A stretch of DNA of 64,000 bases from Gemmatimonadota bacterium (GTDB lineage Bacteria; Gemmatimonadota; Gemmatimonadetes; Gemmatimonadales; GWC2-71-9), in the NCBI GenBank assembly GCA_036679605.1, contig JAZDCZ010000324.1:1-64000 (forward strand). Reading direction: 5' to 3'. Shown in pieces: positions 4,208 to 54,284 of the stretch. How positions within the stretch are numbered: the first letter of the stretch is position 1; each line of letters opens with the position of its first letter. The notes under the pieces were generated by a model. The model worked only from the letters and a program-made list of their open reading frames with translations. It was not told the origin of the DNA and ran no database searches. A program made the translations under genes and the position numbers.

Positions 4208-4226
4208 CCGGCGAACCGTCTAATAC

Positions 4227-4353
4227 CTATAAGGCCTCCCTTGTCAAGCGGGCCGTAGCTAGACAACACGGGTTTTCTTGCTTCCGTTGTTCGGTTTGTT
4301 TTCCAGCAGCGGTGCTCTGACTTCATTTCAAATGCGGTGCGATGCTCCGATGG
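4227..4353 (-). repeat. IS1111-like right-end remnant, copy 1, inserted after an attC R'' box
   Basis: Minus strand ends GCTTGACAAGGGAGGCCTTATAG. Closely similar to 8057-8183, and the terminal 25 bp recur at 54260-54284. Confidence 0.6.
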
Positions 4354-4380
4354 TTTGCCACGGCTAAAGCCGCAGCTCGG

Positions 4381-6286
4381 GTGCGCCTGTGAGCGTGTTT
4401 GGTCGGAGAGGTGGAAGTCCTCTCCAGGCATGCACACTCCGGCCTGTAATCAACAGTAACTGCGTCCTTGCGAAAGGGGGTGGGAAGCAACTGGAGATGA
4501 AAGAGCAGTCCGTAGGATGACGAACTCGATTCGGCCGGGCCGACCGGCGAGCCTGCCCGAGCAGGGCGAAGCCCGGAAAGAGCCTGTCGCGCTGAGGGGT
4601 TGTGTGTTAAAGCGGCGTCAGGGGTTGGTCAGGTGGTTGGAGACGGAATGCTCTGAAGGCCAGACACGTGAAGCAGGGAGACCTGGGTGGCAAGAGGGAC
4701 GGAGTTCATACGCGTACAGCTGGCGCCGCTGCGCTGGCCGAGGCCGTCGAAGAGCCGACCACTCAGGAGTCAGAGCGTCCATAGTAGCGATGAAGCCGGG
4801 TAATGCCGGTGGAGCGAAGGGACGCAGGAAGGTGGATGAGGGATGACCAGATCATCGGAAACCAAACCGGGCGCAGTGTCTGGGGTGCGGCATCGCCGTG
4901 CCCGGACTCGACCCGACGGAGAGGTTCGCACCCGCTGGTCGTGGACTGAACCGGCGGTCTGGACAAACCGCATGTTGACGGCACTGGAGAATGGAGTGCA
5001 AGGAGGGAAATGGTTTCGACTGATTGACAAGGTCTACTCGGGAGCGAACTTGCTGGCTGCACACAAACGAGTAGCAGCCAACAAGGGAGCTGCTGGCGTA
5101 GATCAGGTGACGGTTGGTGCTTTCACGCGCTACCTGGATGACAATCTGCAGCGGCTAGGGCAGGCGTTACGGAAACAGACGTATCGTCCGCAGGCAGTTC
5201 GCCGTGTGTGGATACCCAAACCGGGCCGGAAGGTCAAGCGACCACTCGGCATACCCACGGTGCGGGATCGGGTGGTGCAAGCTGCACTTCGCAATGTAAT
5301 GGAGCCCATCTTCGAGCGGGATTTTGCCGAGCATAGCTACGGTTTTCGTCCTGGGCGCGGTTGTAAGGATGCGCTGCGACGCGTCAATGCGCTGGTGAAG
5401 GCGGGGTATCGTTACGTTGTGGATGCGGATCTGGAAAGTTATTTCGACACGATTCCGCACGATGGGTTGTTGGCGCTTATCCGGGAGAGAGTCGGCGATG
5501 GCCGAGTGCTGTCGCTTATTGAGATGTTCCTCAAGCAAGGTGTGTTAGATGGCCTCCATGAATGGACGCCGCAACGTGGCAGTCCACAAGGGGCCGTCAT
5601 CTCGCCACTGTTGTCGAACGTGTATCTCGATCCGCTAGATCATTTGATGGCAGAGCGGGACTTTCAGATGGTGCGTTATGCTGATGACTTTGTCGTGCTG
5701 TGTCGGACGCGAGCGGAGGCTGAGGCAGCATTGGAACTGGTGCGGGCGTGGACGGTCGAGGTTGGCCTCACCCTGCATCCTGAGAAGACGGACATCGTCG
5801 ACGTAGAAGTCGAGGGCGTGGATTTCCTAGGGTACCATTTCCAAGGGCGTACACGCTGGCCCCGGAAGCAGAGCATTGCTAAGCTCAAAGAGTTGATCCG
5901 GGCCAAGACTCGTCGGGCCAATGGACACAGCCTGAGTTTTATCATAGCAGATGTGAACCGGACGCTGCGGGGCTGGTTCGGCTACTATCAGCACAGCCAC
6001 TGGACCAGTTTTGGGAATTTGGATGGTTGGATCCGCATGCGCCTGCGTTCTATTCTGCGCCGCCGCGCCGGTCGTCATGGTCGAGGCTACGGCTACCGCG
6101 ATTACGCTCTCTGGCCGAACGCCTTCTTTGCCGAGCATGGGCTGTTTTCCCTAGTTACCGCCCATGGCTTGGTCCGTCAATCCTCTTAGAGGTGAGACTA
6201 CCAACTGGAGAGCCGGATGCGAGAGAACCGCACGTCCGGTTCGGAGGGAGGGGGGACCGAAACCAATCGGTTCTCCCTACCCCTAT
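4381..6286 (+). mobile_element. Group II intron (ribozyme plus RT/maturase ORF)
   Basis: 5' end GTGCG at 4381. Domain V GAGCCGGATGCGAGAGAACCGCACGTCCGGTTC at about 6208-6243. Domain VI hairpin ends CCCTACCCCTAT at 6286. Confidence 0.9.
4843..6189 (+). CDS. ltrA: Group II intron reverse transcriptase/maturase, no endonuclease domain
   Basis: NKGAAGVD, RPLGIPTVRDR, SYGFRPGR, PQGAVISPLL, RYADD, FLGY, and domain X LRGWFGYY. ORF is intact. Confidence 0.95.
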   Translation: MTRSSETKPGAVSGVRHRRARTRPDGEVRTRWSWTEPAVWTNRMLTALENGVQGGKWFRLIDKVYSGANLLAAHKRVAANKGAAGVDQVTVGAFTRYLDDNLQRLGQALRKQTYRPQAVRRVWIPKPGRKVKRPLGIPTVRDRVVQAALRNVMEPIFERDFAEHSYGFRPGRGCKDALRRVNALVKAGYRYVVDADLESYFDTIPHDGLLALIRERVGDGRVLSLIEMFLKQGVLDGLHEWTPQRGSPQGAVISPLLSNVYLDPLDHLMAERDFQMVRYADDFVVLCRTRAEAEAALELVRAWTVEVGLTLHPEKTDIVDVEVEGVDFLGYHFQGRTRWPRKQSIAKLKELIRAKTRRANGHSLSFIIADVNRTLRGWFGYYQHSHWTSFGNLDGWIRMRLRSILRRRAGRHGRGYGYRDYALWPNAFFAEHGLFSLVTAHGLVRQSS

Positions 6287-6318
6287 CTGCCCACGGCGAG
6301 TGAGCGCTGACGTTATGC
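6287..6318 (+). other. Right half of an attC-like site (3' exon of the intron)
   Basis: GCGAGTGAGCGCTGACGTTATGC, with R' GTTATGC at 6312-6318; similar to 51556-51580. Confidence 0.55.
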
Positions 6319-6494
6319 GCACCTGACCTACCATGTGATGCTGGACGCGAGGATCGACAGTTCGGAGCGTTGTGTGCGCGCTACTTGGTAGAGGGTCGAA
6401 CATGCGGCGAGATGTCGGGTATTCCACGTTGACCTGCCGGTGCCTACAGAGGCATGATCGCGAGTTTAAGAGACGAGTCAAGCAAGGAGACTGA

Positions 6495-7826
6495 ATGTAC
6501 TCCCACCAATCCCCGAAGATCTGGCACATGAAAAGCGCTAACGACTGGCTCCGGGGGCTGGCACCCGCTTTCCGATCGGCCGGAACCCTGTGCCTCCTGA
6601 TGCTCTTGGCCTCCCCAGGCGCTTCCGCACAGTCTGCTGAGAAGCAGCTCTCCGAGGCCAAGGTGATCACCGTTCGACCGGGTGACCCCCGTGTGGACGG
6701 ACACCAGCTTCCGTCTGTTACGGCAAGTTGGCGTGTGACTCGCACTGCACCCGGCGGGGAGGAATCTGAGGTTGGGGTCTGGACCGATACATGGAAGGTG
6801 GTCGAGCGAGACGGGGAAGAACTACAGCGTTTCGAGACCGTTGTTACGAGGGTCGATCAGGATCTTCGTCACGACATCACTTACAAACGCCTGCCAACCC
6901 TCGCGGTCGCTGCCGTCGAGCTGTTCAACTACAACGGCAAGGGCGGCTGGGCCTACCTCCACTATGACGCGGGGCGGGCGACGAGTGTCTTTCGCCGCGA
7001 GCAGGGCTCGGAGACCCTATCGGAGTCCGAGGATCTCGGGGAGCGAGTGTTCTCGGCGGGCTCAGAGGTCGAGTTGCTGCAATTTTTCGAGCCTGCGGTA
7101 GGTCTCAAGTTGCGCTACCCGACTCACGACCAGGCCAAGGGTGGAATCGTCTGGGTCACCGCTCAGGTCGTCGGAAGGCAAGTCGACGACGACGGGGCGT
7201 TTCGCGGAACGGAGGTCTGGCTAGTCGAGAACTCCCTTCAGTGGAAGTACCGGCTCCTGACACACCCTCCCTACGTGTTGCGGCTCGAAACCACAACGGC
7301 AGGCGGCGTGGTGACACGCTGGGAGCTGATCGATTACCGTCTCTTGGCGAAGTCGGGCACGGATGGAAGACATCCCGTGATGGCAGACGGCGACAGTCGA
7401 CTCGATGGGGTGTGGCGGCTGGTGATGGCCGAGGTGATCGGACCGGACGGCGTGCATCGTCCTGGCCACGCCCAGGAGAGCTTTCTCATGTTCTCAAAGG
7501 ACTACTACAGCATGAACTGGGCGGGGGGCAAGGCACCCGCACCATTTTCTGCGAAGCCGCTCCGTCCGACCGATGCCGAGAAGATTACTCGGTATAGCTC
7601 GCTCATCGTGAACGCGGGGCGTTTCGAAGTATCGGACGGGAAGCTGACGATCCGGCACGAGTGCGAACTCGGGCCGGAGTACGTCGGCGGCCTCGGCGAG
7701 TTCGACTATGCGGTGAGTGGCGATACGCTGGATCTCGTCTGGCGTACGATCGAATCAGCGGACGGCACGCCCGACCCGGCCACGGCCGCGGGAGTGCGTT
7801 TCCACTACACGTGGATTCGAAGGTAG
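6495..7826 (+). CDS. Secreted hypothetical protein with C-terminal lipocalin-like domain, cassette-borne
   Basis: AAGGAG RBS, signal peptide, LDGVWRLV..NAGRFEV motif. Lies between GTTATGCGCACC and the partly complementary GGTGCTTTATAAG. Confidence 0.7.
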   Translation: MYSHQSPKIWHMKSANDWLRGLAPAFRSAGTLCLLMLLASPGASAQSAEKQLSEAKVITVRPGDPRVDGHQLPSVTASWRVTRTAPGGEESEVGVWTDTWKVVERDGEELQRFETVVTRVDQDLRHDITYKRLPTLAVAAVELFNYNGKGGWAYLHYDAGRATSVFRREQGSETLSESEDLGERVFSAGSEVELLQFFEPAVGLKLRYPTHDQAKGGIVWVTAQVVGRQVDDDGAFRGTEVWLVENSLQWKYRLLTHPPYVLRLETTTAGGVVTRWELIDYRLLAKSGTDGRHPVMADGDSRLDGVWRLVMAEVIGPDGVHRPGHAQESFLMFSKDYYSMNWAGGKAPAPFSAKPLRPTDAEKITRYSSLIVNAGRFEVSDGKLTIRHECELGPEYVGGLGEFDYAVSGDTLDLVWRTIESADGTPDPATAAGVRFHYTWIRR

Positions 7827-7837
7827 CTGCCGGTGCT

Positions 7838-7932
7838 TTATAAGAAACGTTTGCTGCCGGCGCCGGAGACCTGTGTAGCGCTATCGCCGACTGGCCTCGC
7901 GGGCGCGCAGCGGAAATGGAGAATCGTTGGAC
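7838..7932 (+). other. attC site with mutated R''
   Basis: CGTTT[G]CTGCCG[G]CGCC pairs with GGCGCGCAGCGGAAATG. R' is GTTGGAC at 7926-7932; R'' has decayed to TTATAAG. Confidence 0.7.
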
Positions 7933-8054
7933 TGCTCGCCTTCGGCGGACAAGCGAGTGCTGGAGATTACGTATGCGAATGATCACTTGCGGACTTACCG
8001 CGCTGATGTTGGTGTCGCTTGCCCGGGAAATGGCTAGCTGGTGAACTGTGTAAC
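7926..8054 (+). pseudogene. Internally deleted second copy of the DUF6265-like cassette
   Basis: 7926-8016 aligns with 3666-3756 and 8012-8054 aligns with 4182-4224, joined at a shared GTGTC. Confidence 0.85.
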
Positions 8055-8056
8055 AC

Positions 8057-8183
8057 CTGTAAGGCCTCCGCTGTCAAGCGGCCGTAGCTAGACAACATGG
8101 GTTTTCTTGCTTCCCGTTGTTCGGTTCGTTTTTCAGCAACGGCGCTCTGACTTCATTTCAAATACGGCGCGATGTTCTGATGG
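8057..8183 (-). repeat. IS1111-like right-end remnant, copy 2
   Basis: Diverged copy of 4227-4353, again 2 nt after R'' (GTGTAAC, 8048-8054). Confidence 0.6.
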
Positions 8184-8269
8184 GAGCGGCAGAACCGTTG
8201 GGCCGCACAAGCGCTGAGGGGACGTCAGCGTCCTTGACTTGGCAGCGTTTGTTAGATATTTCCGACTCG

Positions 8270-8539
8270 ATGCCCCGCGTCTCATTTACTCCCAACATCC
8301 AGCGACACGTCGAGTGCCCATCCTCAGACGTCGTAGGCGAGACCGTTCGGGAGGTACTTGAAAATCTTTTTGCAGAGAAGACGAGGGCGCGCGGCTACGT
8401 GCTAGACGATCAGGGTGTTCTGCGGCAGCATATGGTAATCTTCGTCGACGGCAGGCCGGTTCAAGATCGCAAGGACCTGAGTGATCGGGTGTCGCCGGAT
8501 GCCGAGATCTACATTATGCAGGCGCTCTCCGGAGGGTGA
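8270..8539 (+). CDS. MoaD/ThiS family ubiquitin-like protein
   Basis: About 89 aa ending QALSGG; ATG at 8270. Confidence 0.9.
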   Translation: MPRVSFTPNIQRHVECPSSDVVGETVREVLENLFAEKTRARGYVLDDQGVLRQHMVIFVDGRPVQDRKDLSDRVSPDAEIYIMQALSGG

Positions 8540-8545
8540 CGAATC

Positions 8546-9661
8546 ATGAGTGACACGCTATGGGTGGCGACCCGAAAGGGTCTGTTTACCGTAAGTCGTG
8601 CAAGCGATGGGAAATGGGCGGTGTCGAATTCTGCATTCCTCGGTGATCATGTCTCGATGGTGTTGCCGGCTGGGGACGGCCAACTTTACGCCGGGCTCTA
8701 CCACGGTCACTTCGGATCCAAACTGCATCGCTCCATGGATGCCGGTAAGAGCTGGGCGGAGTGTGCGACGCCATCATTTCCTGAACGTCCCCCGGACGCC
8801 CCTGCCGATATCAGTCCGCTTAGTCAGCAAGAGGTCCCGTGGAAACTGATCATGATTTGGGCACTGGAGACCGGGGGCCCTGACCAACCGGAACTCCTCT
8901 GGTGCGGTACGATTCCGGGAGGACTGTTCCAATCGAGTGACCGCGGAGATTCATGGGAGTTGGTGCGCTCGCTCTGGGACCACCCGCTACGGCGGGAATG
9001 GTTTGGCGGTGGCATGGACTATCCGGGTATCCACTCAGTATGCGTCGACCCACGTGACTCCCGCCGGGTGACCGTCGGGGTGTCGTGCGGTGGCGTATGG
9101 GTCACCGAAGATGGCGGTGGGTCGTGGAATTGCCGTGCAGACGGAATGTGGGCAGCGTACATGCCACCGGAGCGCAAGAACGATCCCCAGATCCAGGATC
9201 CACACTGCATCGTTCAGTGCCACTCGAATCCGGACGTGATGTGGACTCAGCATCACAACGGAGTATTCCGAACCGTCGATGGTGCTGCCAATTGGTACGA
9301 AATCGAGAACGTGCCACCGTCAACGTTCGGTTTTGCAGTGGCCGTTCATCCAGAAGACCCGGACACGGCATGGTTCGTCCCGGGGATCAGTGACGAACAC
9401 CGCATCCCGGTCGACGGCAAGGTCGTGGTATCGCGCACCAATGACGGTGGCAAGTCGTTTGAGATGCTGCGGAACGGATTGCCGCAACAGCATGCCTATG
9501 ACCTCACGTTTCGTCACGCGCTCGACGTCGATGAGACTGGCAACCGTCTAGCATTCGGCAGCACTACCGGATCACTTTGGGTAACGGAGAATGGTGCTGA
9601 CACCTGGGCAAGCGTGTCGACACACCTGCCTCCAGTCTACTGCGTGCGCTTCGTCAAGTAA
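8546..9661 (+). CDS. BNR/Asp-box beta-propeller (sialidase-like) protein
   Basis: Repeated SxDxGxSW Asp-boxes; no signal peptide. Confidence 0.85.
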   Translation: MSDTLWVATRKGLFTVSRASDGKWAVSNSAFLGDHVSMVLPAGDGQLYAGLYHGHFGSKLHRSMDAGKSWAECATPSFPERPPDAPADISPLSQQEVPWKLIMIWALETGGPDQPELLWCGTIPGGLFQSSDRGDSWELVRSLWDHPLRREWFGGGMDYPGIHSVCVDPRDSRRVTVGVSCGGVWVTEDGGGSWNCRADGMWAAYMPPERKNDPQIQDPHCIVQCHSNPDVMWTQHHNGVFRTVDGAANWYEIENVPPSTFGFAVAVHPEDPDTAWFVPGISDEHRIPVDGKVVVSRTNDGGKSFEMLRNGLPQQHAYDLTFRHALDVDETGNRLAFGSTTGSLWVTENGADTWASVSTHLPPVYCVRFVK

Positions 9662-9667
9662 CCTGCC

Positions 9668-11527: not shown

Positions 11528-11530
11528 ACT

Positions 11531-12754: not shown

Positions 12755-12793
12755 GGACTAACTTCTGCGGACATTGAAACCATATTGGAGGTT

Positions 12794-31632: not shown

Positions 31633-31705
31633 GGGGCTGTAGCTCAGATGGGAGAGCGCTGCGTTCGCAATGCAGAGGTCAGGGGTTCGATCCCCCTCAG
31701 CTCCA
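31633..31705 (+). tRNA. tRNA-Ala (anticodon CGC)
   Basis: GGGGCTG acceptor stem, CTGCG-TTCGCAA-TGCAG anticodon arm, GGTTCGATCCCC T arm; CCA tail not encoded. Confidence 0.95.
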
Positions 31706-31706
31706 C

Positions 31707-31779
31707 TGCCCCGTGGTGTAACTGGCAACACGTCTGACTCTGGATCAGAAGAGTCCAGGTTCGAGCCCTGGCGGGGCAA
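31707..31779 (+). tRNA. tRNA-Gln (anticodon CTG)
   Basis: TGCCCCG/CGGGGCA acceptor stem, TCTGA-CTCTGGA-TCAGA anticodon arm, GGTTCGAGCC T arm; CCA tail not encoded. Confidence 0.95.
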
Positions 31780-31780
31780 T

Positions 31781-31820
31781 TCAAAATAGGTCGCGGCCCA
31801 AGAGGCCGCGGCCTTTTGAA
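31781..31820 (+). terminator. Terminator hairpin after the tRNAs
   Basis: AGGTCGCGGCC..GGCCGCGGCCTTTT. Confidence 0.75.
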
Positions 31821-32134
31821 TTGCCCCCACCAGGGCATCGCCGTCGTCTCTCGCCTTTGGCTCGAGACATACCGGTCGAGCCCATCGTGTTCGCCATCGC
31901 GTCTCGCTGCGCTCGACGCATTCCGGTCCGAGCCCTGGCAGGGGAACTATAAGCGAGTCAAGCGGTTAGGGTAGCTCGCTGTGGCATTTTGGAGGGCCCC
32001 TCACCGAAGTTGGTGTCCGGATTTTTTTCGCTGTGAGATCCTCGTCGCATGTTATGCTGCGTTGCTACCCACTGGCTGGCGACCTGCGTCCTCGCGCCGC
32101 ATCTTAGTGATGCTACCAGCCGGAGCGCTGCGCC

Positions 32135-32257
32135 GTGACCGAAGCCATGGAACGCCTCAAGACCGCCCTTGCAGACCGCTACGCCATCCAGGAAGAGATC
32201 GGCGCCGGTGGCATGGCGACCGTCTACCTCGCTGAGGATCTGAAGCACAACTGTTGA
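32135..32257 (+). pseudogene. N-terminal fragment of a Ser/Thr protein kinase
   Basis: MTEAMERLKTALADRYAIQEEIGAGGMATVYLAEDLKHNC*; the glycine-rich loop is present, then a stop. Confidence 0.85.
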
Positions 32258-32266
32258 GGAGACGCC

Positions 32267-32452
32267 ATGGTTAAGGGCACCAAGAAGAAGCCAGATAGGC
32301 GGAAAGCCGTAAGACGGCTCGCGAACATCCCCGTGATGGTCGATCACCGCGTGCATCAGCGTCGTAAGCACTCACCGATGAGCCAGGCACGTTACTGCGT
32401 CAAGTGCGGCACTCAGCTTGATCCGCCGGGTAGCACCTGTCCTGTTTGCTAA
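32267..32452 (+). CDS. Small protein with C-terminal zinc ribbon
   Basis: GAGGAG RBS; CVKC..CPVC. Confidence 0.5.
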   Translation: MVKGTKKKPDRRKAVRRLANIPVMVDHRVHQRRKHSPMSQARYCVKCGTQLDPPGSTCPVC

Positions 32453-32560
32453 CGACGACGCCGGAGTCCGTTTCCAGTCACACTCTCCGAGTCGACGCTG
32501 ACGTTGTAGACTCCCGATGACCGAGCGGCTAGATCAACGACGAGGATACGATGAAGACGA

Positions 32561-33001
32561 ATGACCAACGGGGATGCACGGCGACGCTCATTCGACCAAG
32601 GACGATGGATGTCCGAACGACAAAAACGTAGGTTGCTCGTCGTCGACGACCCTGCACCAGAAGATGGCGAACGAGCGGTATTTAAGGCCGACGTGAACCC
32701 CGCTCTCAAGGGCTCAGGAGAGCTAGATCTTGAGTGTGGGAGTTGTGGCGCCGTGCTCGCTCAATCCATCTGGCCTTATGTGGTCTATGACGTTGGATTG
32801 ATCTGTGCAGATTGTGGAGCTTTCAACGACACACCCTCAGCGGTAGGTGGGATGGCGTTAGGGCCCGTGCTTTACGTGCCTGTGGGAACTTATATATTTC
32901 CCGCGAGCCTTTCAGTCAGAAAAGATGTCCCGATTATTGGGGAAGCGTTTCCAGGAGCCGGTCCGCCTGCAGCGGGAAGTCTCGTCGAGCTACCTCACTA
33001 G
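32561..33001 (+). CDS. Hypothetical zinc-ribbon protein
   Basis: CGSC and CADC pairs. Confidence 0.6.
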   Translation: MTNGDARRRSFDQGRWMSERQKRRLLVVDDPAPEDGERAVFKADVNPALKGSGELDLECGSCGAVLAQSIWPYVVYDVGLICADCGAFNDTPSAVGGMALGPVLYVPVGTYIFPASLSVRKDVPIIGEAFPGAGPPAAGSLVELPH

Positions 33002-33007
33002 TAGCAA

Positions 33008-33358
33008 ATGGTAACCCCGAACAAAGGGACAGAAGGCGATATTATAGCACGCAGGTATCAACACGGTGTCCTGAAAGAGTTTTTCGTAATGCAATTCCTC
33101 AATGGCAAGATACATGACGGTGAGCGAACACTCCTAGAGGGTCTCTCGATCTACATCAAAGAGGTAACCAAGCCGTCTGGCATCAAGTCATGGTCCGGCG
33201 GGTTTGATCTACCCGAGGACAAATATATTGAAGTAGGTGGACCGTACAGAATCTCTCTTGAGGACGGACGCACAGGCGACATACTCGTAACCGAGGTAAA
33301 TTATTCGTCTCGCTCACCAATTCGGGTGTTCTTCAAAGGAGTTAGCCCGCTTGATTAG
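33008..33358 (+). CDS. Hypothetical protein
   Basis: Protein-like composition; start may be the ATG at 33089. Confidence 0.55.
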   Translation: MVTPNKGTEGDIIARRYQHGVLKEFFVMQFLNGKIHDGERTLLEGLSIYIKEVTKPSGIKSWSGGFDLPEDKYIEVGGPYRISLEDGRTGDILVTEVNYSSRSPIRVFFKGVSPLD

Positions 33359-33403
33359 AACCGTCCATCGGTGGTCGGGAGACATTAAACTCAACGGAGA
33401 GGA

Positions 33404-33664
33404 TTGCAAGAGAGAATGACAGGTTCACAGTACGACAAGTCTGAAATCGAAACAATCCGCACCCGAGCACGGCTCGGCGATCTCAAGGAGCTACGGTGCC
33501 CACGGGACAGCGAACGCTTGCTCACCGATATAGTAGCACGCTTGATCGACGAGGAAGAACCAGCCGTCGGTGTCAGATGTGGAGATAATCTCGACGTAAA
33601 GACTGTTTCGGTGACGTGCACGAAATGTGGCGCTGAGGCCGCTCTGATTCGCCTGGGTCGATAA
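33404..33664 (+). CDS. Hypothetical Cys-containing protein
   Basis: GAGAGGA RBS; CPRD..CTKC. Confidence 0.5.
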   Translation: MQERMTGSQYDKSEIETIRTRARLGDLKELRCPRDSERLLTDIVARLIDEEEPAVGVRCGDNLDVKTVSVTCTKCGAEAALIRLGR

Positions 33665-33695
33665 GGGAGGCACAGAGTACCGTACTCGATGCGTT

Positions 33696-33998
33696 GTGCA
33701 AACAGTTGGACTGAGAGAGAGCTTGACGAGGAGACGAGTGGGTAAGGTTTCTGACACCGACCACGAAATAGCTCGAAGACTACCTGACGAATTCCTCAGA
33801 GGTAGCGGCATCTCGGGTAACCGGGTTGTGCGACTGGTGAACGCGCATTGGGGGTCGTATGATAATCCAGCCCGTGCCGAACTTGCCCAGGCACTGCTGC
33901 CGATCCTGGAGGAACTTCTCTACGCCGGAGCCTACGTCACTGACGAACATCGTGATCTCTGCGAGGGTGTGGTGACGGTTTGGTTGGAGAGACAGTAG
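33696..33998 (+). CDS. Hypothetical protein
   Basis: ORF with GAGGAG before an internal GTG, the likely start. Confidence 0.45.
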   Translation: MQTVGLRESLTRRRVGKVSDTDHEIARRLPDEFLRGSGISGNRVVRLVNAHWGSYDNPARAELAQALLPILEELLYAGAYVTDEHRDLCEGVVTVWLERQ

Positions 33999-34106
33999 GC
34001 TCTGTGTCTACGTTGCAGAGAGCCACCTTACCGATACCCCAGCGAAAGCATAACTTGAATGCCCAACGACTATCTGGCAGCAAACCTCAGACAGTGAGAG
34101 CAAGCG

Positions 34107-34370
34107 ATGAACAAGAGGCTTAGTTGCGGTGGACACATTATCGTCGCGATCCCAGAACGTGTGCCAGAATCGACGGAGTGGTACGCCAATGGTCGTATTG
34201 AACGCCTACGCGCCGATGGACCAGCGGTGTACGAGCGTAGTCCCGGTAACATATGTGCCACCGAGGAAGAAGCTGTGAAGTGCTACCACGCCTTCGGACA
34301 GCAGGTCATTTACGATGGCATTCAACTCACCCTGTCTACCGGTGATCCGAAACAGTTGGGGAAGCAATGA
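34107..34370 (+). CDS. Small hypothetical protein, tandem paralog 1
   Basis: MNKRL..I.VA.P....EW....IE...ATEEEAV...HAFG pattern shared with the next ORF. Confidence 0.65.
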   Translation: MNKRLSCGGHIIVAIPERVPESTEWYANGRIERLRADGPAVYERSPGNICATEEEAVKCYHAFGQQVIYDGIQLTLSTGDPKQLGKQ

Positions 34371-34612
34371 ACAAGAGGCTTGAGTATCAGGGATACGTTA
34401 TCGTCGCGACCCCCACTCAAGTGCGAGAATCGGAGTGGAGCACCCGATGTGATATTGAACAACACTCCGACGACGGTTTTGTTATGATAAAGTACTTCGA
34501 CGCAACCGCGGATACATGGGCCACCGAGGAAGAGGCTGTGAGAGAGTCCCACGCATTTGGGATGCGGATCATAGACTGCGAAGTCCCCGGTCTGTCCATC
34601 GGGGGGTTGTAG
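34367..34612 (+). CDS. Small hypothetical protein, tandem paralog 2
   Basis: Same start ATGAACAAGAGGCTT and shared GCCACCGAGGAAGA.GCTGTG; ATGA overlap. Confidence 0.7.
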   Translation: MNKRLEYQGYVIVATPTQVRESEWSTRCDIEQHSDDGFVMIKYFDATADTWATEEEAVRESHAFGMRIIDCEVPGLSIGGL

Positions 34613-47306: not shown

Positions 47307-47418
47307 GTACGTAAGGTGTACTCCACCGGTGCTGCCGGTGGTGAAGGCGGTATGAAGAAATCATGAAGCCCGAAGGTCTAGCTGTTCCTGGGCGCGGAGG
47401 GTATCGTTTAGGTAGATA

Positions 47419-47871
47419 TTGCTCGAGGGCCAAAACGTGTCGGATCAGGATGGGACGGGCGTCGCCGAGAGACTGGCGGCGTACTTAGACTCAAGCAGCG
47501 GCAGACCGTTACACCGGCAGATCGTCGATCGGTTGTGGTTGGAGGTAGTGACGGGAACACTGGAAACCGGTGAGAGGCTACCCACGATTCGGCAGCTCGC
47601 CGTGGACTTGAATCTCAGCCCCAATACGGTCGCCCAAGCCTTCAAGGAGCTGGAATCTCTCGGCGTTGTGGTTACGCGTCAGGGAACCGGAACTTTTGTC
47701 GGGTTGCGCGATCCGGATCGATCGGAACTAGAGCGCCGCGCCCAACTCGAACGCCTATGCGATGACGTCGTGTCGCAGAGCAGCGCATTGGGAATACCGT
47801 TGGGTGATGTAGTAGATGCGCTCGAAGATATGCACTCGCCTGGCCACGATGGAAACTCCAGTGGGAGATAA
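47419..47871 (+). CDS. GntR (YtrA-type) regulator
   Basis: GERLPTIRQLA..SPNTV....ELE..G..GTGTFV. Confidence 0.9.
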   Translation: MLEGQNVSDQDGTGVAERLAAYLDSSSGRPLHRQIVDRLWLEVVTGTLETGERLPTIRQLAVDLNLSPNTVAQAFKELESLGVVVTRQGTGTFVGLRDPDRSELERRAQLERLCDDVVSQSSALGIPLGDVVDALEDMHSPGHDGNSSGR

Positions 47872-47873
47872 CT

Positions 47874-48866: not shown

Positions 48867-48875
48867 TCGGAGCGA

Positions 48876-49379
48876 TCAGCCCCCGTAAAAAATCTTCTCG
48901 CCCAAGTCCTTGAGCCACAAAGTGACATCGTCGGGGCGGCCTTCGATTTCTCCTGGAACCGATGCCTCCACCACCTCACCCACAACGATCGAGTGATCGC
49001 CTTTTTCGATGAACTCTACGACAGAACACTCTATTGATGCCGGAGCGCTTGCGAGAATAGGTACCCCGGTAGCGCCGGTGCCAAACGTGTGACCACCGAT
49101 CTTGTCACCGTCACGACTTGCTGGTTTGAAAAAGTCGTATGCGATGCCACCCTGATCCTTGCCCAAGACACTCAGTGCAAAGCTACCGGTATCCTTGATA
49201 ATTCCATGAACGCCCGAATCGGCCTTCACGCCCACGACCAATAGAGGTGGTGCGAATGACGCCTGTGTTACCCAGTTAACGGTTGCCGCTCCGACTCGGC
49301 CATCCTCGGCCTCGGCGGTCAATACGTACAGGCCGTACGGGATCATTCGCAAGGCAGTCTTCTTGGCGTCGGTATCCAT
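48876..49379 (-). CDS. Flavin reductase family protein
   Basis: IPYGLYV, QASFAPPL, GDHSIVVGEV. Confidence 0.92.
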   Translation of the reverse strand: MDTDAKKTALRMIPYGLYVLTAEAEDGRVGAATVNWVTQASFAPPLLVVGVKADSGVHGIIKDTGSFALSVLGKDQGGIAYDFFKPASRDGDKIGGHTFGTGATGVPILASAPASIECSVVEFIEKGDHSIVVGEVVEASVPGEIEGRPDDVTLWLKDLGEKIFYGG

Positions 49380-49418
49380 GTAATCCTCTTCGTTAGTTGT
49401 GTGTTCAAAGAAAGCCCG

Positions 49419-49874
49419 TTATGGGTATTCCGGTCCCAGCGGCCATACTCGCAGCGGAATTTGCCGCTGCGTACATGCGTTCTCGAGAACGGAGTAATAG
49501 GGTGCCCAGCCATCCGTCTCCCGAGGCCTGGCGTAAAAAAGAATCGATGTCGCACCTCGCGTAACGAACCGTTCCGCTACTCTTGCAACAAGAGTGGCAA
49601 TGCCATCGGCGACTAGCAAGTGATCGTAGTGGGGAATCCGGTCGTCGGCGTCGAGTAGTCCGTACTTTCCGGAGAGAATCGCGAACGGCAGATCCAATCG
49701 CTTGCTCTCGGCAAAGACGTATTGAATCCGCTTACTGATGTATCTGTGAATGGCCGGTAGCGGATCCGGATCCCTACGCTTTCGCTTGCAGCAAATTGTG
49801 CAGAGATATTGCACGGCGATTCCCAGGTCTCCAAGGTGCTCGGCCATAGGCCGAGTTGTCTCGCTCGGCACCAA
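49419..49874 (-). CDS. Hypothetical protein (DUF6884-like)
   Basis: CCKRK..ILSGKYGLL..IPHYD pattern. Confidence 0.6.
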   Translation of the reverse strand: MVPSETTRPMAEHLGDLGIAVQYLCTICCKRKRRDPDPLPAIHRYISKRIQYVFAESKRLDLPFAILSGKYGLLDADDRIPHYDHLLVADGIATLVARVAERFVTRGATSILFYARPRETDGWAPYYSVLENACTQRQIPLRVWPLGPEYP

Positions 49875-49927
49875 CGTCAGTCTGACCTCGTGCGTAATCC
49901 TACATAGTCAACAGGTTTACTTGAAGG

Positions 49928-50614
49928 GTGAACAGAGACCTAACCGATAGCGAGAGGCGGAGAATGGTAGAAGCAAAGGTGGCGGTATCGATAGTAGCGC
50001 TTACGGTCTTGCTTGGAGCGACGGGAATGAAGCCCGCAGTATCGCCGTCGAGCGTAGGAGATAGCACTAGGCTGGTGCTGGCGCCCGAGGGTAACGAAGC
50101 GCGCTACATGGTACGGGAGCAGCTCGCACGATTGTCGTTCCCCAGTGATGCCGTGGGTATGACCAAGGACCTTACAGGTGCACTCGTGATCGATGAGCAT
50201 GGCAAGGTGGTGCCGTCGGAGTCGAGGTTCACGGTAGACGTTACCACACTGAAGAGCGATCGTGAGCGCCGCGACCGGTATCTTCAACGCCGCACACTTC
50301 ATACGAGTGAGTTTCCCACGGTCGAGCTGAATCTGACCGAATTACCGGGGCTCCCTGTTCCCCTACCCGCGTCTGGGGCCTTCGACTTCGAACTCGTGGG
50401 TGATCTAACTGTTCATGGAGTCACGCGGTCTACAAGGTGGAAAGTCGTTGCGGAGGCTGAAGGTGCAGGGTTCTCCGGCACGGCGTCCACGTCATTCACC
50501 TTTGGCGACTTTGGTCTCGCCAAGCCCCGCATCGCCATGCTGTTAAGCGTCGCAGACACCATTCGGCTGGAGTACGATTTCCACTTGATCCCCGATCAGA
50601 AAGCTGAGCCATAG
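49928..50614 (+). CDS. YceI family protein
   Basis: LKSDRERRD, FPT, GDLTVHGVT. Confidence 0.9.
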   Translation: MNRDLTDSERRRMVEAKVAVSIVALTVLLGATGMKPAVSPSSVGDSTRLVLAPEGNEARYMVREQLARLSFPSDAVGMTKDLTGALVIDEHGKVVPSESRFTVDVTTLKSDRERRDRYLQRRTLHTSEFPTVELNLTELPGLPVPLPASGAFDFELVGDLTVHGVTRSTRWKVVAEAEGAGFSGTASTSFTFGDFGLAKPRIAMLLSVADTIRLEYDFHLIPDQKAEP

Positions 50615-50625
50615 AGGTTCTCGAG

Positions 50626-51162
50626 CTAGCGGTTCAGTTGCGCGAGGCGGGCCGAGCATTCTGCAACACCCGTCTGCACATTGAGCGCCGTGTAGAGTGC
50701 CTTGGCCTCTTCCCACAATCGTCTCGCTTCTGCCACATCTCCCGAATCTTGTTTGAGGATCGCCAGCGGCCGGATGGCGTTTGCGAGATCGAGCTTGGGA
50801 GCCCGCTCGTGGTTGCGATATAGAGCAAGCGCCTCGTGGTAACATGGCTCTGCTAGTTCCGCGCAACCCGCATCCCGGTGGATGTCGCCTAAGTGTCGCA
50901 CGGTGTGCGCCAATGTGAGAGGGTCACTCTCTTCGCGGCAAAGGGCGACGGCCTCCTCGTACAACGGCCGCGCCGCATCGCCGTGTCCGGAATCTCGCTC
51001 GATTTGCCCCAGTGCCTTGAGCGCCCGCACCAACTCCTGTCGTTGGCCGGCCTGACGACAGAGCGACACCGCCGCCAGCAGATCGCGATGGGCATCGGCC
51101 AGTCGGTTCTCTCGCCGCGCGGAATCGGCGCGTCGAAGGAGTGTTTCGGCAGAATCTGACAT
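50626..51162 (-). CDS. Tetratricopeptide repeat protein
   Basis: Repeated LG......G....A...Y.EAL units. Confidence 0.85.
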   Translation of the reverse strand: MSDSAETLLRRADSARRENRLADAHRDLLAAVSLCRQAGQRQELVRALKALGQIERDSGHGDAARPLYEEAVALCREESDPLTLAHTVRHLGDIHRDAGCAELAEPCYHEALALYRNHERAPKLDLANAIRPLAILKQDSGDVAEARRLWEEAKALYTALNVQTGVAECSARLAQLNR

Positions 51163-51263
51163 TCTGGCCTCGTTGGTGAGGACGTCGCGCGATGCAAGGA
51201 CCGCCATGGCAATATCGGTGAGTTGAGAGTGACCGGCAACTCGGCGACGGTGAGGTTCATGCG

Positions 51264-51362
51264 TTACTCGGTCATCGCGACGTGCGGACAACGATGATCA
51301 ATGCGCACGTGCTGAACCGGCCGGGGCTCGGTGTTAGGAGCCCGGCGGACGAGATGGGATAA
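51264..51362 (+). pseudogene. intI: C-terminal relic of an integron integrase
   Basis: Translates [32 protein letters not shown], matching the IntI tail LLGH.DV.TTMIYTHVLNR...GVRSP.D. Catalytic Tyr replaced by Asn. Confidence 0.88.
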
Positions 51363-51580
51363 CCCGCTTGCTAACTCGCTACGCGGCGTAGTGGACTGCT
51401 TCCCAGGCTGCATATTGCCGGGTGCAGATCGGAACCGTATTCTTGAAGTTGTTGTGAGTGTTGGACTAACGCGAAGGGCCCTTGCGCTAACTGGCCGGAA
51501 AGCAATAGGAGCCACGGCGAGACAACTCGGAGCCGTGTTTCACCCCTGTGCCACGCAGCTGAGCGCCCAATCCGTTATGC
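51363..51580 (+). other. Putative attI-containing region and first cassette junction
   Basis: Non-coding stretch between the intI stop and GTTATGC (51574-51580); no complete attC left arm. Confidence 0.5.
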
Positions 51581-51599
51581 CGCAGAGGATGGGGGAGAT

Positions 51600-51686
51600 A
51601 TGGGACCGGGACGGTACATCGAGGTGAGATGTCTAGTTGGCTTGGTCGCCTGCTTCGTGATCGGCCATCCGCTGAGTGCGTTCTAA
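51600..51686 (+). CDS. 28-aa hydrophobic cassette ORF, possibly truncated
   Basis: GGGGGAGA RBS; MGPGRYIEVRCLVGLVACFVIGHPLSAF*; stop lies in the R'' box. Confidence 0.4.
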   Translation: MGPGRYIEVRCLVGLVACFVIGHPLSAF

Positions 51687-51781
51687 CAAGCGATTGCTAC
51701 TGGCACGTATGACATCAGGGTCGCGCGCTACGCACGCGGAGGTCAGATTGCACACGCGGTAGAATTGCAAATCCGTTATAC
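51681..51781 (+). other. attC site A
   Basis: R'' TTCTAAC; GCGATT[G]CTACTG pairs with CGGTAGAATTGC; R' GTTATAC. Confidence 0.85.
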
Positions 51782-51838
51782 CGCACAAGTTTACGATCCG
51801 ACCCCATCATTTCGTCCTCGGTTGACCCCCTTCGACAG

Positions 51839-51859
51839 AGTAATTACATTGTAATTACT
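51839..51859. promoter_or_regulatory. TA operator palindrome
   Basis: Perfect AGTAATTACA-T-TGTAATTACT upstream of the antitoxin. Confidence 0.8.
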
Positions 51860-51875
51860 ACATCAGAGGTAAACA

Positions 51876-52124
51876 ATGAAAACTAGGATTGTCAAAATCG
51901 GAAACTCTCGCGGGATCCGGATTCCCAAGCCGTTACTTGAACAGGCTGGCCTCCAAGATGAAGTCAAACTCGAGATCGATGAAGATGGCCTCCGTATTAC
52001 ACCTTCAGCCAACGTGCGTAGGGGGTGGAGTGAAGCAGCTCAAGTGATCGCAAATCGGGGCGAAGATGGCCTGCTTGATACGGAGACTCAGACCAACTTC
52101 GACGTGGCGGAGTGGACGTGGTAA
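51876..52124 (+). CDS. AbrB/MazE family antitoxin
   Basis: KIGNSRGIRIPK. Confidence 0.92.
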   Translation: MKTRIVKIGNSRGIRIPKPLLEQAGLQDEVKLEIDEDGLRITPSANVRRGWSEAAQVIANRGEDGLLDTETQTNFDVAEWTW

Positions 52125-52453
52125 CGACTACCCGGCCCCGAAGAGGTGACGTGTTCCTGATTGGACTAGATCCGACAAGAGGGCGAGAGATCCGCAAAAC
52201 GCGGCCCTGTCTGGTAGTGTCGCCCGACGAACTGAACGCCCATCTCAGCACGACTATTGTCGCACCAATGACCACCGGAGGGCATGCGTACCCTTTCCGC
52301 ATTCAATGTCGTTTTCAGCGCAAGTCGGGCTTCGTGGTGCTAGATCAACTCCGCACCATCGATTCTGCTCGATTAGTGAAGAAACTTGGCAAGGTATCTC
52401 CGACAATCCTGTCTAAGGTGCTGGACAGACTCCGCGAGATGTTCACGGCCTAA
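52112..52453 (+). CDS. PemK/MazF family toxin
   Basis: RGDV..LDPTRGREIRKTRPCLVVS..DQLRTID..RL. Confidence 0.93.
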   Translation: MDVVTTTRPRRGDVFLIGLDPTRGREIRKTRPCLVVSPDELNAHLSTTIVAPMTTGGHAYPFRIQCRFQRKSGFVVLDQLRTIDSARLVKKLGKVSPTILSKVLDRLREMFTA

Positions 52454-52462
52454 AGGAGTGCG

Positions 52463-52598
52463 GCATAACTAGCGCATGATACTGACGCCGCCGCGAGCGT
52501 CCGTAGCGGTGGATACTTGGTTCAATACGAGAGTACTATCATGGGTATGAAGAGGAGGGTTGGAGGAGCGGCGCAGTATACGCGCAATGTCGTTAGGC
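52463..52598 (+). other. attC site B
   Basis: R'' GCATAAC; GCGCAT[G]ATACTG[A]CGCCGC pairs with GCGGCGCAGTATACGCGC; R' GTTAGGC. Confidence 0.9.
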
Positions 52599-52625
52599 GG
52601 ACAGGTTCAGCTCGCGAAGGAGATC

Positions 52626-53150
52626 ATGACAGTGGCCAAAGCGATCATCGGTTTCTTGGCGGGCAGCCTCGTAACGTCGCTCATCGCCTGGGCCTTCGCC
52701 ATCCCGCAGGTACGCCAATCGTACCGCACGCCACCCCCCAACCACCGCACATCGGAGGTTCACATGAAGCGAGTCACTGGCATCGGCGGCATCTTTTTCA
52801 AGGCGAAGGATGCACCGGCGCTGCAGGCTTGGTACAAGGCTCATCTCGGCATCGATGTCCAGGCGTGGGGCGGTGCCGCATTCGACTGTGTCGACTCGGA
52901 TGGCAAGCCCACCGGCGGAACGACCACCTGGTTGGTTGCTTCGGAGGAAAGCAAGCAGTTTGCTCCAAGCAAAGCCTCGTTCATGGTCAACTACCGCGTT
53001 GAAGACCTTCACGCTCTGGTCGCGGCGCTCAAGGCGGAGGGCTGCAACGTCCTCGACAAGATCGATGACTCTGAGTACGGCAAGTTTGGCTGGGTCATCG
53101 ATCCCGAGGGAAACAAGGTTGAATTGTGGCAACCACTTGCCGGTCAGTGA
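52626..53150 (+). CDS. VOC/glyoxalase family protein, cassette-borne
   Basis: RVTGIGGIFFKA..MVNYRV..DPEGNKVELWQP; alternative start at 52764 with GGAGG. Confidence 0.9.
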   Translation: MTVAKAIIGFLAGSLVTSLIAWAFAIPQVRQSYRTPPPNHRTSEVHMKRVTGIGGIFFKAKDAPALQAWYKAHLGIDVQAWGGAAFDCVDSDGKPTGGTTTWLVASEESKQFAPSKASFMVNYRVEDLHALVAALKAEGCNVLDKIDDSEYGKFGWVIDPEGNKVELWQPLAGQ

Positions 53151-53181
53151 AACGCGCCCACGCTCCCTGCGGCAGTCTGCG

Positions 53182-53259
53182 GCCTAACCCTTCGCTGCAG
53201 CCGACCTGCTACCCCTGGCTCCGCCAGCCTCCGCAGGCGGCTGAACTCAATCGTTAGGT
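53182..53259 (+). other. attC site C
   Basis: R'' GCCTAAC; CT[G]CAGCCG[A]CC pairs with GGCGGCTGAA; R' GTTAGGT. Confidence 0.93.
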
Positions 53260-53281
53260 GGCTCCGACGGGAGGTCAAGAT

Positions 53282-53887
53282 ATGACCGCCATCGCGACAA
53301 ACGGGGACGACGTGAGAATGGAAGCGGCGCGCATCGCCTTCGCACTGATCCGCTTTGAGGGAGTCGCGGCCCACCCGATGGGAGCGTCCATACCGCCAGA
53401 CTCGCTCCGGGTCGGGACCGAGGCGTTCTTCCTCCCGTCCTGGCGCGAAGTTCCATACGACGAGGTCGAAGCCTTCCTCGTCGGCTTGCCGTCCCCCGCG
53501 CTACTGGCACCGACCACGATGCGCGGCGTAATTGCGCTCGCGCTATTGCACGAGCTGAGTGGCGATCGGCAACGCTGGGCCGAGAAGACCCTGAGCAACT
53601 TCGCCGCAGGGCTTGAGGAGATCGCCCCGCAGCTTGGCTTGTCGCCCACGTCGCGCATTCTGCTCGAGTTTGACCAAGAATCGCATGCTTTTTCCTTTGC
53701 CGGGATCCGCGAATGGACGCAGCAACTTCCCGTGCAAGTGGGGTGGAGCATCTCGCCGCTTGAGGGCGACGACCGCGCGGACGCTTGCATGATGCTGAGG
53801 CGCAGCGATGGCAAGCGGTTTCCGGGACAGTCGTGCACGATCCCGCCCGGTTGGTCGCCTCGTGAGCCTGAGAGCGGAGCCACCTAA
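53282..53887 (+). CDS. Hypothetical cassette protein
   Basis: GGAGG RBS; stop inside R''. Cassette ends GTTAGGTGGCTC and GAGCCACCTAAC are exactly complementary. Confidence 0.75.
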   Translation: MTAIATNGDDVRMEAARIAFALIRFEGVAAHPMGASIPPDSLRVGTEAFFLPSWREVPYDEVEAFLVGLPSPALLAPTTMRGVIALALLHELSGDRQRWAEKTLSNFAAGLEEIAPQLGLSPTSRILLEFDQESHAFSFAGIREWTQQLPVQVGWSISPLEGDDRADACMMLRRSDGKRFPGQSCTIPPGWSPREPESGAT

Positions 53888-53994
53888 CGCGCGCCTGAAG
53901 CTGGCAGGCGGAGAGGATTCGATTGGTTGGTGCGTATGGTGAGAGTTAGAGAACGACTGAGTCGCCTGTAGCTTACGCGCCGGAGCCGTTAGGC
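53882..53994 (+). other. attC site D
   Basis: R'' ACCTAAC; T[G]AAGCTG[G]CAGGCG pairs with CGCCTGTAGCTTA; R' GTTAGGC. Confidence 0.88.
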
Positions 53995-54013
53995 GGCGCC
54001 ATAGGAGGCTTAT

Positions 54014-54208
54014 ATGACTGAAACCGACTCACCGTTAGGACGATCAATCGGCCTCTCTGGTGTCATTCGCTTCTTAGTTGCCGTGGCCGTGGTCGTCGCT
54101 GTTGGCGCGGCGTTCGCTGACGGTCACTACAGGTTGGGGATCGCTGGCGTCATATTCGTCGTGGCCGCTGTGATCCTGGGGTATCGGGCTTGGCGCGCTC
54201 GGCAGTAG
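54014..54208 (+). CDS. 64-aa two-TM cassette protein
   Basis: AGGAGG RBS, two hydrophobic helices. Cassette ends GTTAGGCGGCG and CGCCGCCGAAC. Confidence 0.75.
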   Translation: MTETDSPLGRSIGLSGVIRFLVAVAVVVAVGAAFADGHYRLGIAGVIFVVAAVILGYRAWRARQ

Positions 54209-54259
54209 GCTGGAGTGCCCCGACGGGGCAGCGATTCTAAGTCGAGCGCCGCCGAACTC

Positions 54260-54284
54260 CTAATAAGGCCTCCCTTGTCAAGCG
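54260..54284 (-). repeat. IS1111-like right-end remnant, copy 3 (25 bp), replacing most of an attC
   Basis: CTAATAAGGCCTCCCTTGTCAAGCG, 2 nt after the R''-like GCCGAAC (54251-54257). Confidence 0.6.

What the first reader, a model, noticed from the sequence alone, without database searches (positions are those of the whole stretch)
4218..54284. The same IS1111-like end interrupts three attC sites at the same position (R'' + 2 nt, then CT)
Seen: GTCTAAT-AC-CTATAAGGCCTCCCTTGTCAAGCG (4218), GTGTAAC-AC-CTGTAAGGCCTCCGCTGTCAAGCG (8048) and GCCGAAC-TC-CTAATAAGGCCTCCCTTGTCAAGCG (54251). The third follows an unrelated cassette about 46-50 kb away, so there were at least two independent insertions. On the minus strand the end reads GCTTGACAAGGGAGGCCTTAT(T)AG, with an outward TTGACA near the tip. 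Known: IS1111-group right ends carry such a -35 box, and CT is the core dinucleotide of the IS621 bridge system. Inference: these are footprints of a second attC-specific IS110-family element, antiparallel to the cassettes. The roughly 127-bp copies may be non-autonomous and keep part of the guide RNA, and they would immobilise cassettes by destroying attC.
Basis: partly seen in the sequence, partly recalled or inferred. Interest (0 to 1): 0.7.

Follow-up and report, generated by a model that had tools for sequence, protein, structure and literature searches.

The report
Relics of an attC-seeking jumping gene
The three repeats are broken-off ends of an RNA-guided jumping gene that lands in the recombination sites of integron gene cassettes; intact relatives carry a guide RNA with two target-reading loops instead of the usual one.

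Summary
The repeat is real. It is the right end of a ~1.6-kb IS110-family element of the ISGsu4/ISMahy12 clade, inserted antisense at the attC R'' boundary. The recombination core is CA (AAC|A), not CT.

The window copies are deletion stubs (about 124, 124 and 28 bp), not MITEs. They have no left end and stop just short of every guide. Copies 1 and 2 are one duplicated cassette, so the window records two insertions; the genome holds 14 right-end stubs.

In intact relatives, 49 of 50 flanks end in AAC. The lineage differs from the known IS1111-attC group: 20% protein identity, and an insertion point about 5 nt away.

The new feature is the 430-530-nt downstream RNA. It folds (49 of 69 pairs compensatory) into two target-binding loops plus one donor loop, across several phyla. 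Loop 1 matches the site used; loop 2 keeps only a generic CTAAC/TTG guide, and its role is inferred.

No paper on such an RNA was found in the library searched. This scan noted a two-target-loop bridge RNA and attC-seeking IS110s before on other DNA (unchecked).

The parts
3713..4207 (+). Cassette gene (DUF6265) whose attC is hit at site 1; the cassette starts at a GTT near 3665
4218..4225 (+). R''-like box GTCTAAT plus A; core position 4224-4225 (CA in relatives, here TA)
4226..4349 (-). Right-end stub 1 of the ISGsu4-clade element: subterminal repeat 4228-4239, -35 box TTGACA 4242-4247 (minus strand), 3' tail of the non-coding region; no guide
4354..4380 (+). Central remnant of an attC with a small hairpin; 5' exon of the intron (by eye)
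   Evidence: inference
4381..6286 (+). Group II intron (RT/maturase ORF 4843-6189) inserted in the attC remnant, in the sense orientation
6287..6318 (+). Right half of the attC ending in R' GTTATGC (6312-6318)
7925..8055 (+). Second, internally deleted copy of the DUF6265 cassette with R''-like GTGTAAC (8048-8054) and core CA (8054-8055)
8056..8179 (-). Right-end stub 2, with the same truncation point as stub 1; an R'-like GTTGGGC follows at 8197-8203
51255..54610 (+). 3' remnant of an integron integrase (51255-51356) followed by a cassette array; one attC passes the strict test (53182-53259), others are by eye
54251..54258 (+). R''-like GCCGAAC plus T (core position 54257-54258)
54259..54286 (-). 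Right-end stub 3 (about 28 bp), fused to the leader of the next gene
1..1172 (-). Second IS110 lineage at the same AAC|A position: left end to 1170, core CA 1171-1172, transposase 38-1087 (frameshifted near 372), single target loop at about 1-95; used as a one-loop control

Best explanation
The three repeats are deletion relics of the right end of a ~1.6-kb IS110-family element of the ISGsu4/ISMahy12 clade. SHOWN BY SEQUENCE: the intact element has a short left end (76-96 nt), a DEDD recombinase gene (347 aa) and a 430-530-nt downstream non-coding region. It has imperfect 10-12-bp subterminal inverted repeats and a CA/TG core at both junctions. It sits antisense to the cassettes, exactly at R''(AAC)|spacer. 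The non-coding region folds into three loops of the same geometry. TBL1 has guides that match R'' and the spacer and vary with each element's own flanks. The donor loop has guides that match the element's own ends. TBL2 is a branch on the donor-loop stem with a short generic guide (CTAAC / TTG). Joining the ends gives TTGACA-17/18-GATACT or GATAAT. INFERRED from IS621, seekRNA and CazIS110 work: a circle forms, the junction promoter drives recombinase and RNA, TBL1 and the donor loop pair with attC and circle, and strands are exchanged at the core; both handshake dinucleotides favour insertion. Insertion splits R'' from L'', and later deletions left the stubs, which cannot move on their own and leave a dead attC. 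For TBL2 I commit to (about 45%): it grips the flanks of the resident copy, whichever attC TBL1 chose, during copy-out or direct transfer, while TBL1 captures the new site. The confidence below is for identity, target and RNA architecture, not for the role of TBL2.
For: Full elements carry this end 430-480 nt downstream of an antiparallel IS110 gene (L003, L004, L009). 41 of 89 loci had both ends. 49 of 50 distinct right-end flanks end in AAC; the AA was not in the search pattern, the C partly was. 14 of 34 rebuilt empty sites pass a strict attC test, against 0.07 expected from shuffles. RNA structure: 92.2% of cells paired, 49 of 69 pairs compensatory, 0/500 shuffles as high, slid controls 34-47%. 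Own-flank match: LTG1 295 vs 270.6+-5.0 and RTG1 190 vs 162.9+-6.0. Own-end match: LDG 218 vs 201.3 and RDG 288 vs 273.2. Each was 0/5000 permutations. TBL1 fits the site better in 29 of 34 elements, TBL2 in 0, with 5 ties. Handshake: TBL1 AT in 44/44, donor loop TT in 40/44, TBL2 AT in only 3/44. Two target-loop motifs also appear in 4 of 4 marine plasmid members, by eye, and in this genome's own C273 copy. The genome has two integron integrases over the family cut-off.
Against: No intact element was found in this assembly, so the link to full elements rests on 73-87% DNA identity of the ends. 20 of 34 rebuilt sites failed the strict attC test; some are long or decayed attC and some may be off-target. 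An insertion annotated ISGsu4 lies inside gene GSU1771 (PMC11077965), so the clade is not strictly attC-bound. Single-sequence folding is unremarkable for L037 (z 0.29) and modest for L003 (z -2.5). The structure was chosen on the same alignment it was counted on. The permutation tests ignore relatedness. No RNA was shown expressed. TBL2's handshake is weaker but points the same way as TBL1's in 35 of 44, so it is not an excision-type handshake. A sister lineage manages with one target loop.
Confidence: 0.87

Rival explanations
1. The ~127-bp copies are non-autonomous miniature elements that keep part of the guide RNA and are moved in trans.
For: Two window copies end at the same point. Two other stubs (C243, C278) share 670 bp downstream but sit behind different cassettes. 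Mini RNA modules are reported for ISPpu9 (abstract start only).
Against: None of 14 right-end stubs has a left end with it; 5 left-end stubs lie elsewhere without a right end. Lengths vary from about 25 to 1423 nt. The window pair shares its upstream cassette, so it is one event duplicated. The stubs hold no guide.
Confidence: 0.04
2. TBL2 is a second, low-stringency target selector that widens the range of attC variants used (for example TAAC versus GAAC or CAAC).
For: LTG1 and LTG2 differ over the last 7 nt in 43 of 44 elements; some carry GAAC in one loop and TAAC in the other. RTG2 shows a weak own-flank signal (25/5000). At differing positions the flank followed guide 2 in 21 of 153 cases.
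Against: TBL2 fitted better than TBL1 in 0 of 34 insertions, and guide 1 won 93 of 153 differing positions. LTG2 shows no element-specific match (671/5000).
Confidence: 0.25
3. TBL2 is a structural or regulatory leftover (an extra protein-binding module or decoy) whose guide is not used productively.
For: A sister lineage at the same site has one target loop. TBL2's handshake drifts (6 different dinucleotides).
Against: The AAC end of LTG2 is kept in 41 of 44 elements and the stems show compensatory changes, across a clade reaching down to about 50% protein identity. That implies selection on pairing with R''.
Confidence: 0.27
4. It is an ordinary member of the described IS1111-attC group (ISPa21/ISKpn4/ISPst6/ISPa25).
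For: Same target class and orientation (PMC3001079 passage); downstream non-coding region and subterminal repeats.
Against: 20% identity to the attC-inserted IS110 of pKP-Gr642, on a separate long branch (quick tree). The known group inserts 6 nt past R'' (target table in PMC13604230), this one 1 nt past. Its non-coding region is about twice as long.
Confidence: 0.04
5. The repeat is part of a private long attC family, not an IS end.
For: It always follows an R''-like box.
Against: It is continuous with the recombinase gene in full elements and is the inverted partner of the left end. Empty sites rebuild to normal attC without it.
Confidence: 0.01

Closest known systems
IS1111-attC group (ISPa21, ISKpn4, ISPst6, ISPa25; Tetu & Holmes 2008 and Post & Hall 2009, not held, known via PMC3001079 and PMC11187229)
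   Same: [quoted passage not shown] Degenerate footprints in cassette arrays were, from my recall of the Tetu & Holmes abstract, already described.
   Different: 20% protein identity; crossover at R''(AAC)|A instead of 6 nt further in; non-coding region 430-530 nt instead of about 250; two target loops.
ISGsu4, ISGsu5, ISShfr7, ISShwo5, ISMahy12 (ISfinder names seen in supplements of PMC11187229 and PMC11208160)
   Same: Same transposase clade, judged by eye from shared motifs in the supplement text; not aligned by a tool.
   Different: No paper in the library describes their attC targeting or RNA; one incidental mention of ISGsu4. ISfinder entries could not be seen.
IS621 bridge RNA (PMC11208160; PMC13626964)
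   Same: Target and donor loops, each with a left and right guide, a 2-nt core and handshake dinucleotides set for insertion; promoter formed at the circle junction.
   Different: RNA downstream of the gene; core CA/TG; donor loop closed by a three-way junction; an extra target loop.
CazIS110-1 direct-transfer pathway (bioRxiv 10.1101/2025.10.25.684509)
   Same: A second target-loop RNA works beside the full bridge RNA.
   Different: There it is a truncated transcript of the same loop; here two loops with different guides are encoded in tandem.

Membership tests
IS110/IS1111 superfamily | DEDD recombinase with PF01548 and PF02371 | tested here: met
   (P0001 and the genome's C273 copy)
IS110/IS1111 superfamily | No target duplication beyond a 2-nt core; junction promoter on end-joining | tested here: met
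   core at both junctions (left core fixed by the search pattern; right core CA in 39 of 50); TTGACA-17/18-GATACT or GATAAT in 36 of 41 junctions. Promoter activity not tested.
IS110/IS1111 superfamily | Circular intermediate and RNA-dependent movement | not testable with these tools
   No raw reads were available.
IS1111 family (Hall definition) | Long non-coding region downstream of the transposase gene | tested here: met
   433-527 nt (one 681) against 76-96 nt on the left
IS1111 family (Hall definition) | Subterminal inverted repeats of 11-13 bp, 7 and 3 bp inside the ends | tested here: inconclusive
   Imperfect 10-12-bp repeats at about these offsets; definition
IS1111 family (Hall definition) | Transposase related over its full length to IS1111-type proteins | tested here: not met
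   20% identity to the one IS1111-type attC protein aligned; separate from both IS1111-type proteins in a quick tree with long branches
IS1111-attC group | Insertion in attC, near its 5' end, antisense | tested here: met
IS1111-attC group | Same insertion position as ISKpn4/ISPst6/ISPa25 | tested here: not met
   R''+1 here against R''+6
IS1111-attC group | Monophyly with ISPa21/ISPst6 transposases | tested here: not met
   the name ISPa21 for the pKP-Gr642 element is recalled, the record says only 'IS110 family transposase'
Bridge RNA | Conserved fold with loops matching target and donor | tested here: met
Bridge RNA | One target loop and one donor loop | tested here: not met
   Two target-type loops in all 44 aligned regions
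MITE / non-autonomous IS | Both element ends, uniform length, independent flanks | tested here: not met

The most novel reading that the evidence does not exclude
A cross-phylum clade of bridge recombinases uses a natural three-loop RNA with divided labour: one target loop picks the new attC, and a second, generic target loop fused to the donor loop holds the resident copy's flanks for copy-out or direct transfer. IS110-type elements would then have come to target attC in at least three lineages (this clade, the window's one-loop lineage, the ISPa21/ISKpn4 group) at two positions.
Probability: 0.45. Interest if true: 0.8.

Novelty: new variant of a known kind. Interest (0 to 1): 0.6.

Why it matters
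The stubs themselves are ordinary debris. Their parent matters for two reasons. First, how IS110 elements get out of a site when their RNA is tuned for insertion is an open question: for IS621, excision was about 2,000-fold weaker in vitro (PMC13626964). A conserved second target loop is a natural, testable candidate solution, and a scaffold with three separately programmable loops. Second, it suggests that attC, an abundant and renewable site, is attacked by several separate RNA-guided lineages. That may shape how environmental integron arrays decay.

Tried and rejected
- Genome-wide attC scan, to ask whether surviving attC sites avoid the CA core: 28 hits against 18 in a reversed-genome control, too unspecific, dropped.
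- Expression: two RNA-labelled runs held only 4% of the words. Laid contigs were short diverged pieces of other organisms' relatives and say nothing about transcription. The DNA run covers the C273 stretch in pieces and showed no intact element or circle, which proves nothing.
- TBL2 as an excision-handshake loop: its first handshake base still favours the donor in 35 of 44, so this is not supported.
- TAAC/GAAC division between the loops: too few cases.
- Whole-region alifold on 49 sequences recovered only part of the stems. The BLAST part printed nothing and was redone. Local-aligner extents for C278b, C5b and C243 over-ran, so BLAST spans were used.
- The careful tree did not finish; only the quick tree is cited, and its groups were my own labels on proteins chosen by similarity.
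- P0001 at E<=1e-30 hit 3 of 40 related genomes, all at about 32-34% identity, so no close copy was found in those searched.
- L010 is a chance match inside a gene.
- Two left-end pattern hits (C173:85609, C295) and five right-end pattern hits (C214, C237, C240, C251:83185, C319:140419) were judged chance and not counted.
Full report
OBSERVATION. Sites 1 and 2 are 88% identical over 173 bp, and site 3 shares 22 identical bases with site 1. A 21-mer with up to 3 mismatches occurs 9 times in the 6.7-Mb genome, always as this end. The similarity of sites 1 and 2 starts at the G|TT of the upstream cassette. Site 2 is an internally deleted copy of the DUF6265 cassette of site 1. Both stubs leave the element at the same base and share four more bases. 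They are therefore one insertion, truncated and then duplicated. Site 3 is separate and lies in an array behind an integrase 3' remnant at 51255-51356. The remainder of attC 1 carries a group II intron.

WHAT THE END BELONGS TO. A pattern scan of GTDB genomes gave 15 loci. 12 have AAC plus one base before the end, 2 identical ones have a variant, and 1 is chance. Three loci hold a complete antiparallel IS110 gene 430-480 nt from the end. A metagenome scan with that protein confirmed 591 of 600 stretches and kept 80. Of 89 loci with a protein hit, 73 had a left end, 52 a right end and 41 both. Elements are 1558-1654 bp (one 1810), with 76-96 nt before the gene and 433-527 nt (one 681) after it. 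The left end carries the inverted partner of the window motif.

TARGET. Of 50 distinct right-end flanks, 49 read AAC, 33 RYYNAAC and 20 RYYYAAC. The next base is A in 39, C in 10 and T in 1. The left junction reads CA, but my pattern required that. Left flanks show the 5-bp spacer and a TGCAGC-like L'' box. Rebuilt empty sites passed a strict attC register test in 14 of 34 (those with at least 100 nt of flank, duplicates removed), against 0.07 expected from shuffles. Joined ends give TTGACA-18-GATACT (22), TTGACA-17-GATACT (9), TTGACA-18-GATAAT (5) and five variants in 41 junctions. In the inserted state no such -10 box follows.

THIS GENOME. It holds 14 right-end stubs, 5 left-end stubs and one internal piece, none with both ends. 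Retained right-end lengths run from about 25 to 275 nt, plus C273, which keeps 1423 nt and lacks the left end and gene start. The guide nearest the right end starts at about element position 132. The window stubs stop at about 124 and 28 nt and contain none. They are relics, not miniature elements. Two integron integrases over the family cut-off are present elsewhere. A fragmented assembly could hide an intact copy.

THE RNA. I aligned 44 of the 52 right-end-bearing regions. Dropped were this genome's copy, one over 600 nt, one duplicate, four at 90% identity or more, and L012 with an internal deletion. A 69-pair structure, chosen on this same alignment, has 92.2% paired cells and 49 compensatory pairs. 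No shuffle of 500 reached it, and slid controls gave 34-47%. It holds three loops with one geometry: left guide ending in the first core base, inner stem, right guide with core and a two-base handshake. Loop 1 reads GCCTAAC or GTCTAAC in 33 of 44. Its guides match each element's own flanks better than other elements' flanks (0/5000 for both arms). The donor loop matches each element's own ends (0/5000 for both arms). Loop 2 matches R'' only over CTAAC (671/5000), with a weak signal on the other arm (25/5000). These permutations ignore kinship, which matters most for the donor tests. Loop 1 explains the occupied site better in 29 of 34, loop 2 in none, with 5 ties. Handshakes are AT in 44/44 for loop 1, TT in 40/44 for the donor loop, and mixed for loop 2. 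By the rule in PMC13626964, loop 1 and the donor loop each gain one pair on insertion. Both target loops are visible by eye in four marine plasmid members at 50-54% identity and in C273. The window's other IS110 lineage (30% identity) uses the same AAC|A position; a full relative shows one target loop and one donor loop in about 300 nt (read by eye). Two loops are therefore not needed to hit attC.

MECHANISM. Shown: anatomy, target, core, fold and guide matches. Inferred from IS621, seekRNA and CazIS110 studies: circle, junction promoter, RNA-guided strand exchange. For loop 2 I favour holding the resident copy's flanks (about 45%). It is tethered to the donor loop and keeps just the bases common to every site loop 1 picks. 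A preprint shows a separate target-loop RNA acting beside the bridge RNA in direct transfer. Against this, its handshake does not point to excision. A wider target range (25%) and a leftover (27%) remain open.

RELATION TO KNOWN ELEMENTS. IS1111-attC elements insert near the 5' end of attC, antisense (PMC3001079), at 6 nt past R'' (table in PMC13604230). The attC-inserted IS110 of pKP-Gr642 fits that position by eye, has about 250 nt downstream and is 20% identical to ours; its name ISPa21 is recalled. Our protein resembles ISGsu4 and ISMahy12 by eye, and Durrant's table clusters ISGsu4, ISGsu5, ISShfr7 and ISShwo5. So the clade is named, and attC footprints are a known phenomenon (recalled from the Tetu & Holmes 2008 abstract; paper not held). 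One ISGsu4-annotated insertion lies in a gene.

LITERATURE SEEN. PMC11187229: passages, section 9, supplement 1 part 1, searches of its supplements (file 5 unreadable). Its preprint: passages; supplements closed. PMC11208160: passages, section 12, supplement search (files 3 and 4 cut when stored, file 2 unreadable). PMC13626964, PMC3001079, PMC11616780, PMC13604230, PMC11077965 and PMC11322120: passages. bioRxiv 2025.10.25.684509: abstract, sections 8 and 9. PMC12288879: search listing only. Figures were not seen. 'Not in print' rests on searches; (six phrasings of two or more target-binding loops) returned 0 papers. Subscription papers, ISfinder and unseen supplements may already describe this RNA.

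EARLIER NOTES OF THIS SCAN. I noted the three-loop reading. At the scan's notes showed a two-target-loop bridge RNA (e1-7963192) and attC-seeking IS110 RNAs (e1-8063227, e1-7877631) on other DNA. They are unchecked, and no sequence look-alike of L037's region was found, so the two-loop design may not be unique to this clade.

VERDICT. The footprints are real and of a known kind. The parent is a distinct attC-targeting lineage with an unusual three-loop guide RNA. New variant of a known kind; interest 0.6.

Noticed in passing
window 1-1265: A second IS110 lineage sits at the same attC position (core CA 1171-1172). Its gene is frameshifted near 372, and its single target loop is readable at about 1-95 on the minus strand. 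A full relative is in G160 (L124).
   Followed up: partly
window 4381-6286: Group II intron in the sense orientation inside an attC remnant, right after a small hairpin; the described IIC-attC introns insert antisense (PMC3001079 passage).
   Followed up: no
window 51255-51580; also C173, C276, and the downstream module in C243, C278, C326, C5, C165, C154: 3' remnants of an integron integrase lie in the same orientation as the cassettes that follow, with a repeated ~200-bp module between them (about 10 copies). This looks like decayed inverted-type integrons, unlike the two intact divergent integrases.
   Followed up: no
L018 (C243) and L019 (C278): Two right-end stubs share 670 bp downstream (87% identity) but have different upstream cassettes, suggesting recombination between stubs or movement as a block.
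   Followed up: no
window 52464-54610: The four apparently intact attC sites of this array have T, C, G and C after AAC rather than A, so they lack the CA core. A genome-wide test was too noisy.
   Followed up: partly
alignment A2, columns 349-352 and about 508-511: The left donor guide has an invariant mismatch to the element end (TTC against ATC), and a downstream GAAA is invariant; these might pair and mask the guide.
   Followed up: no
L111 (Vibrio campbellii plasmid) about 1070-1145: The marine member sits in a Vibrio-type cassette repeat (by eye), next to another IS110 gene.
   Followed up: no
L003, beyond the left end: The flank is not an attC but reads like the end of an IS91-type transposase gene (by eye).
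   Followed up: no
window 31633-34612: Two tRNA genes are followed by a run of small genes with no Pfam match (one DUF6566), two of them paralogous.
   Followed up: no
window 51876-52453: MazE/PemK toxin-antitoxin pair carried as a cassette.
   Followed up: no
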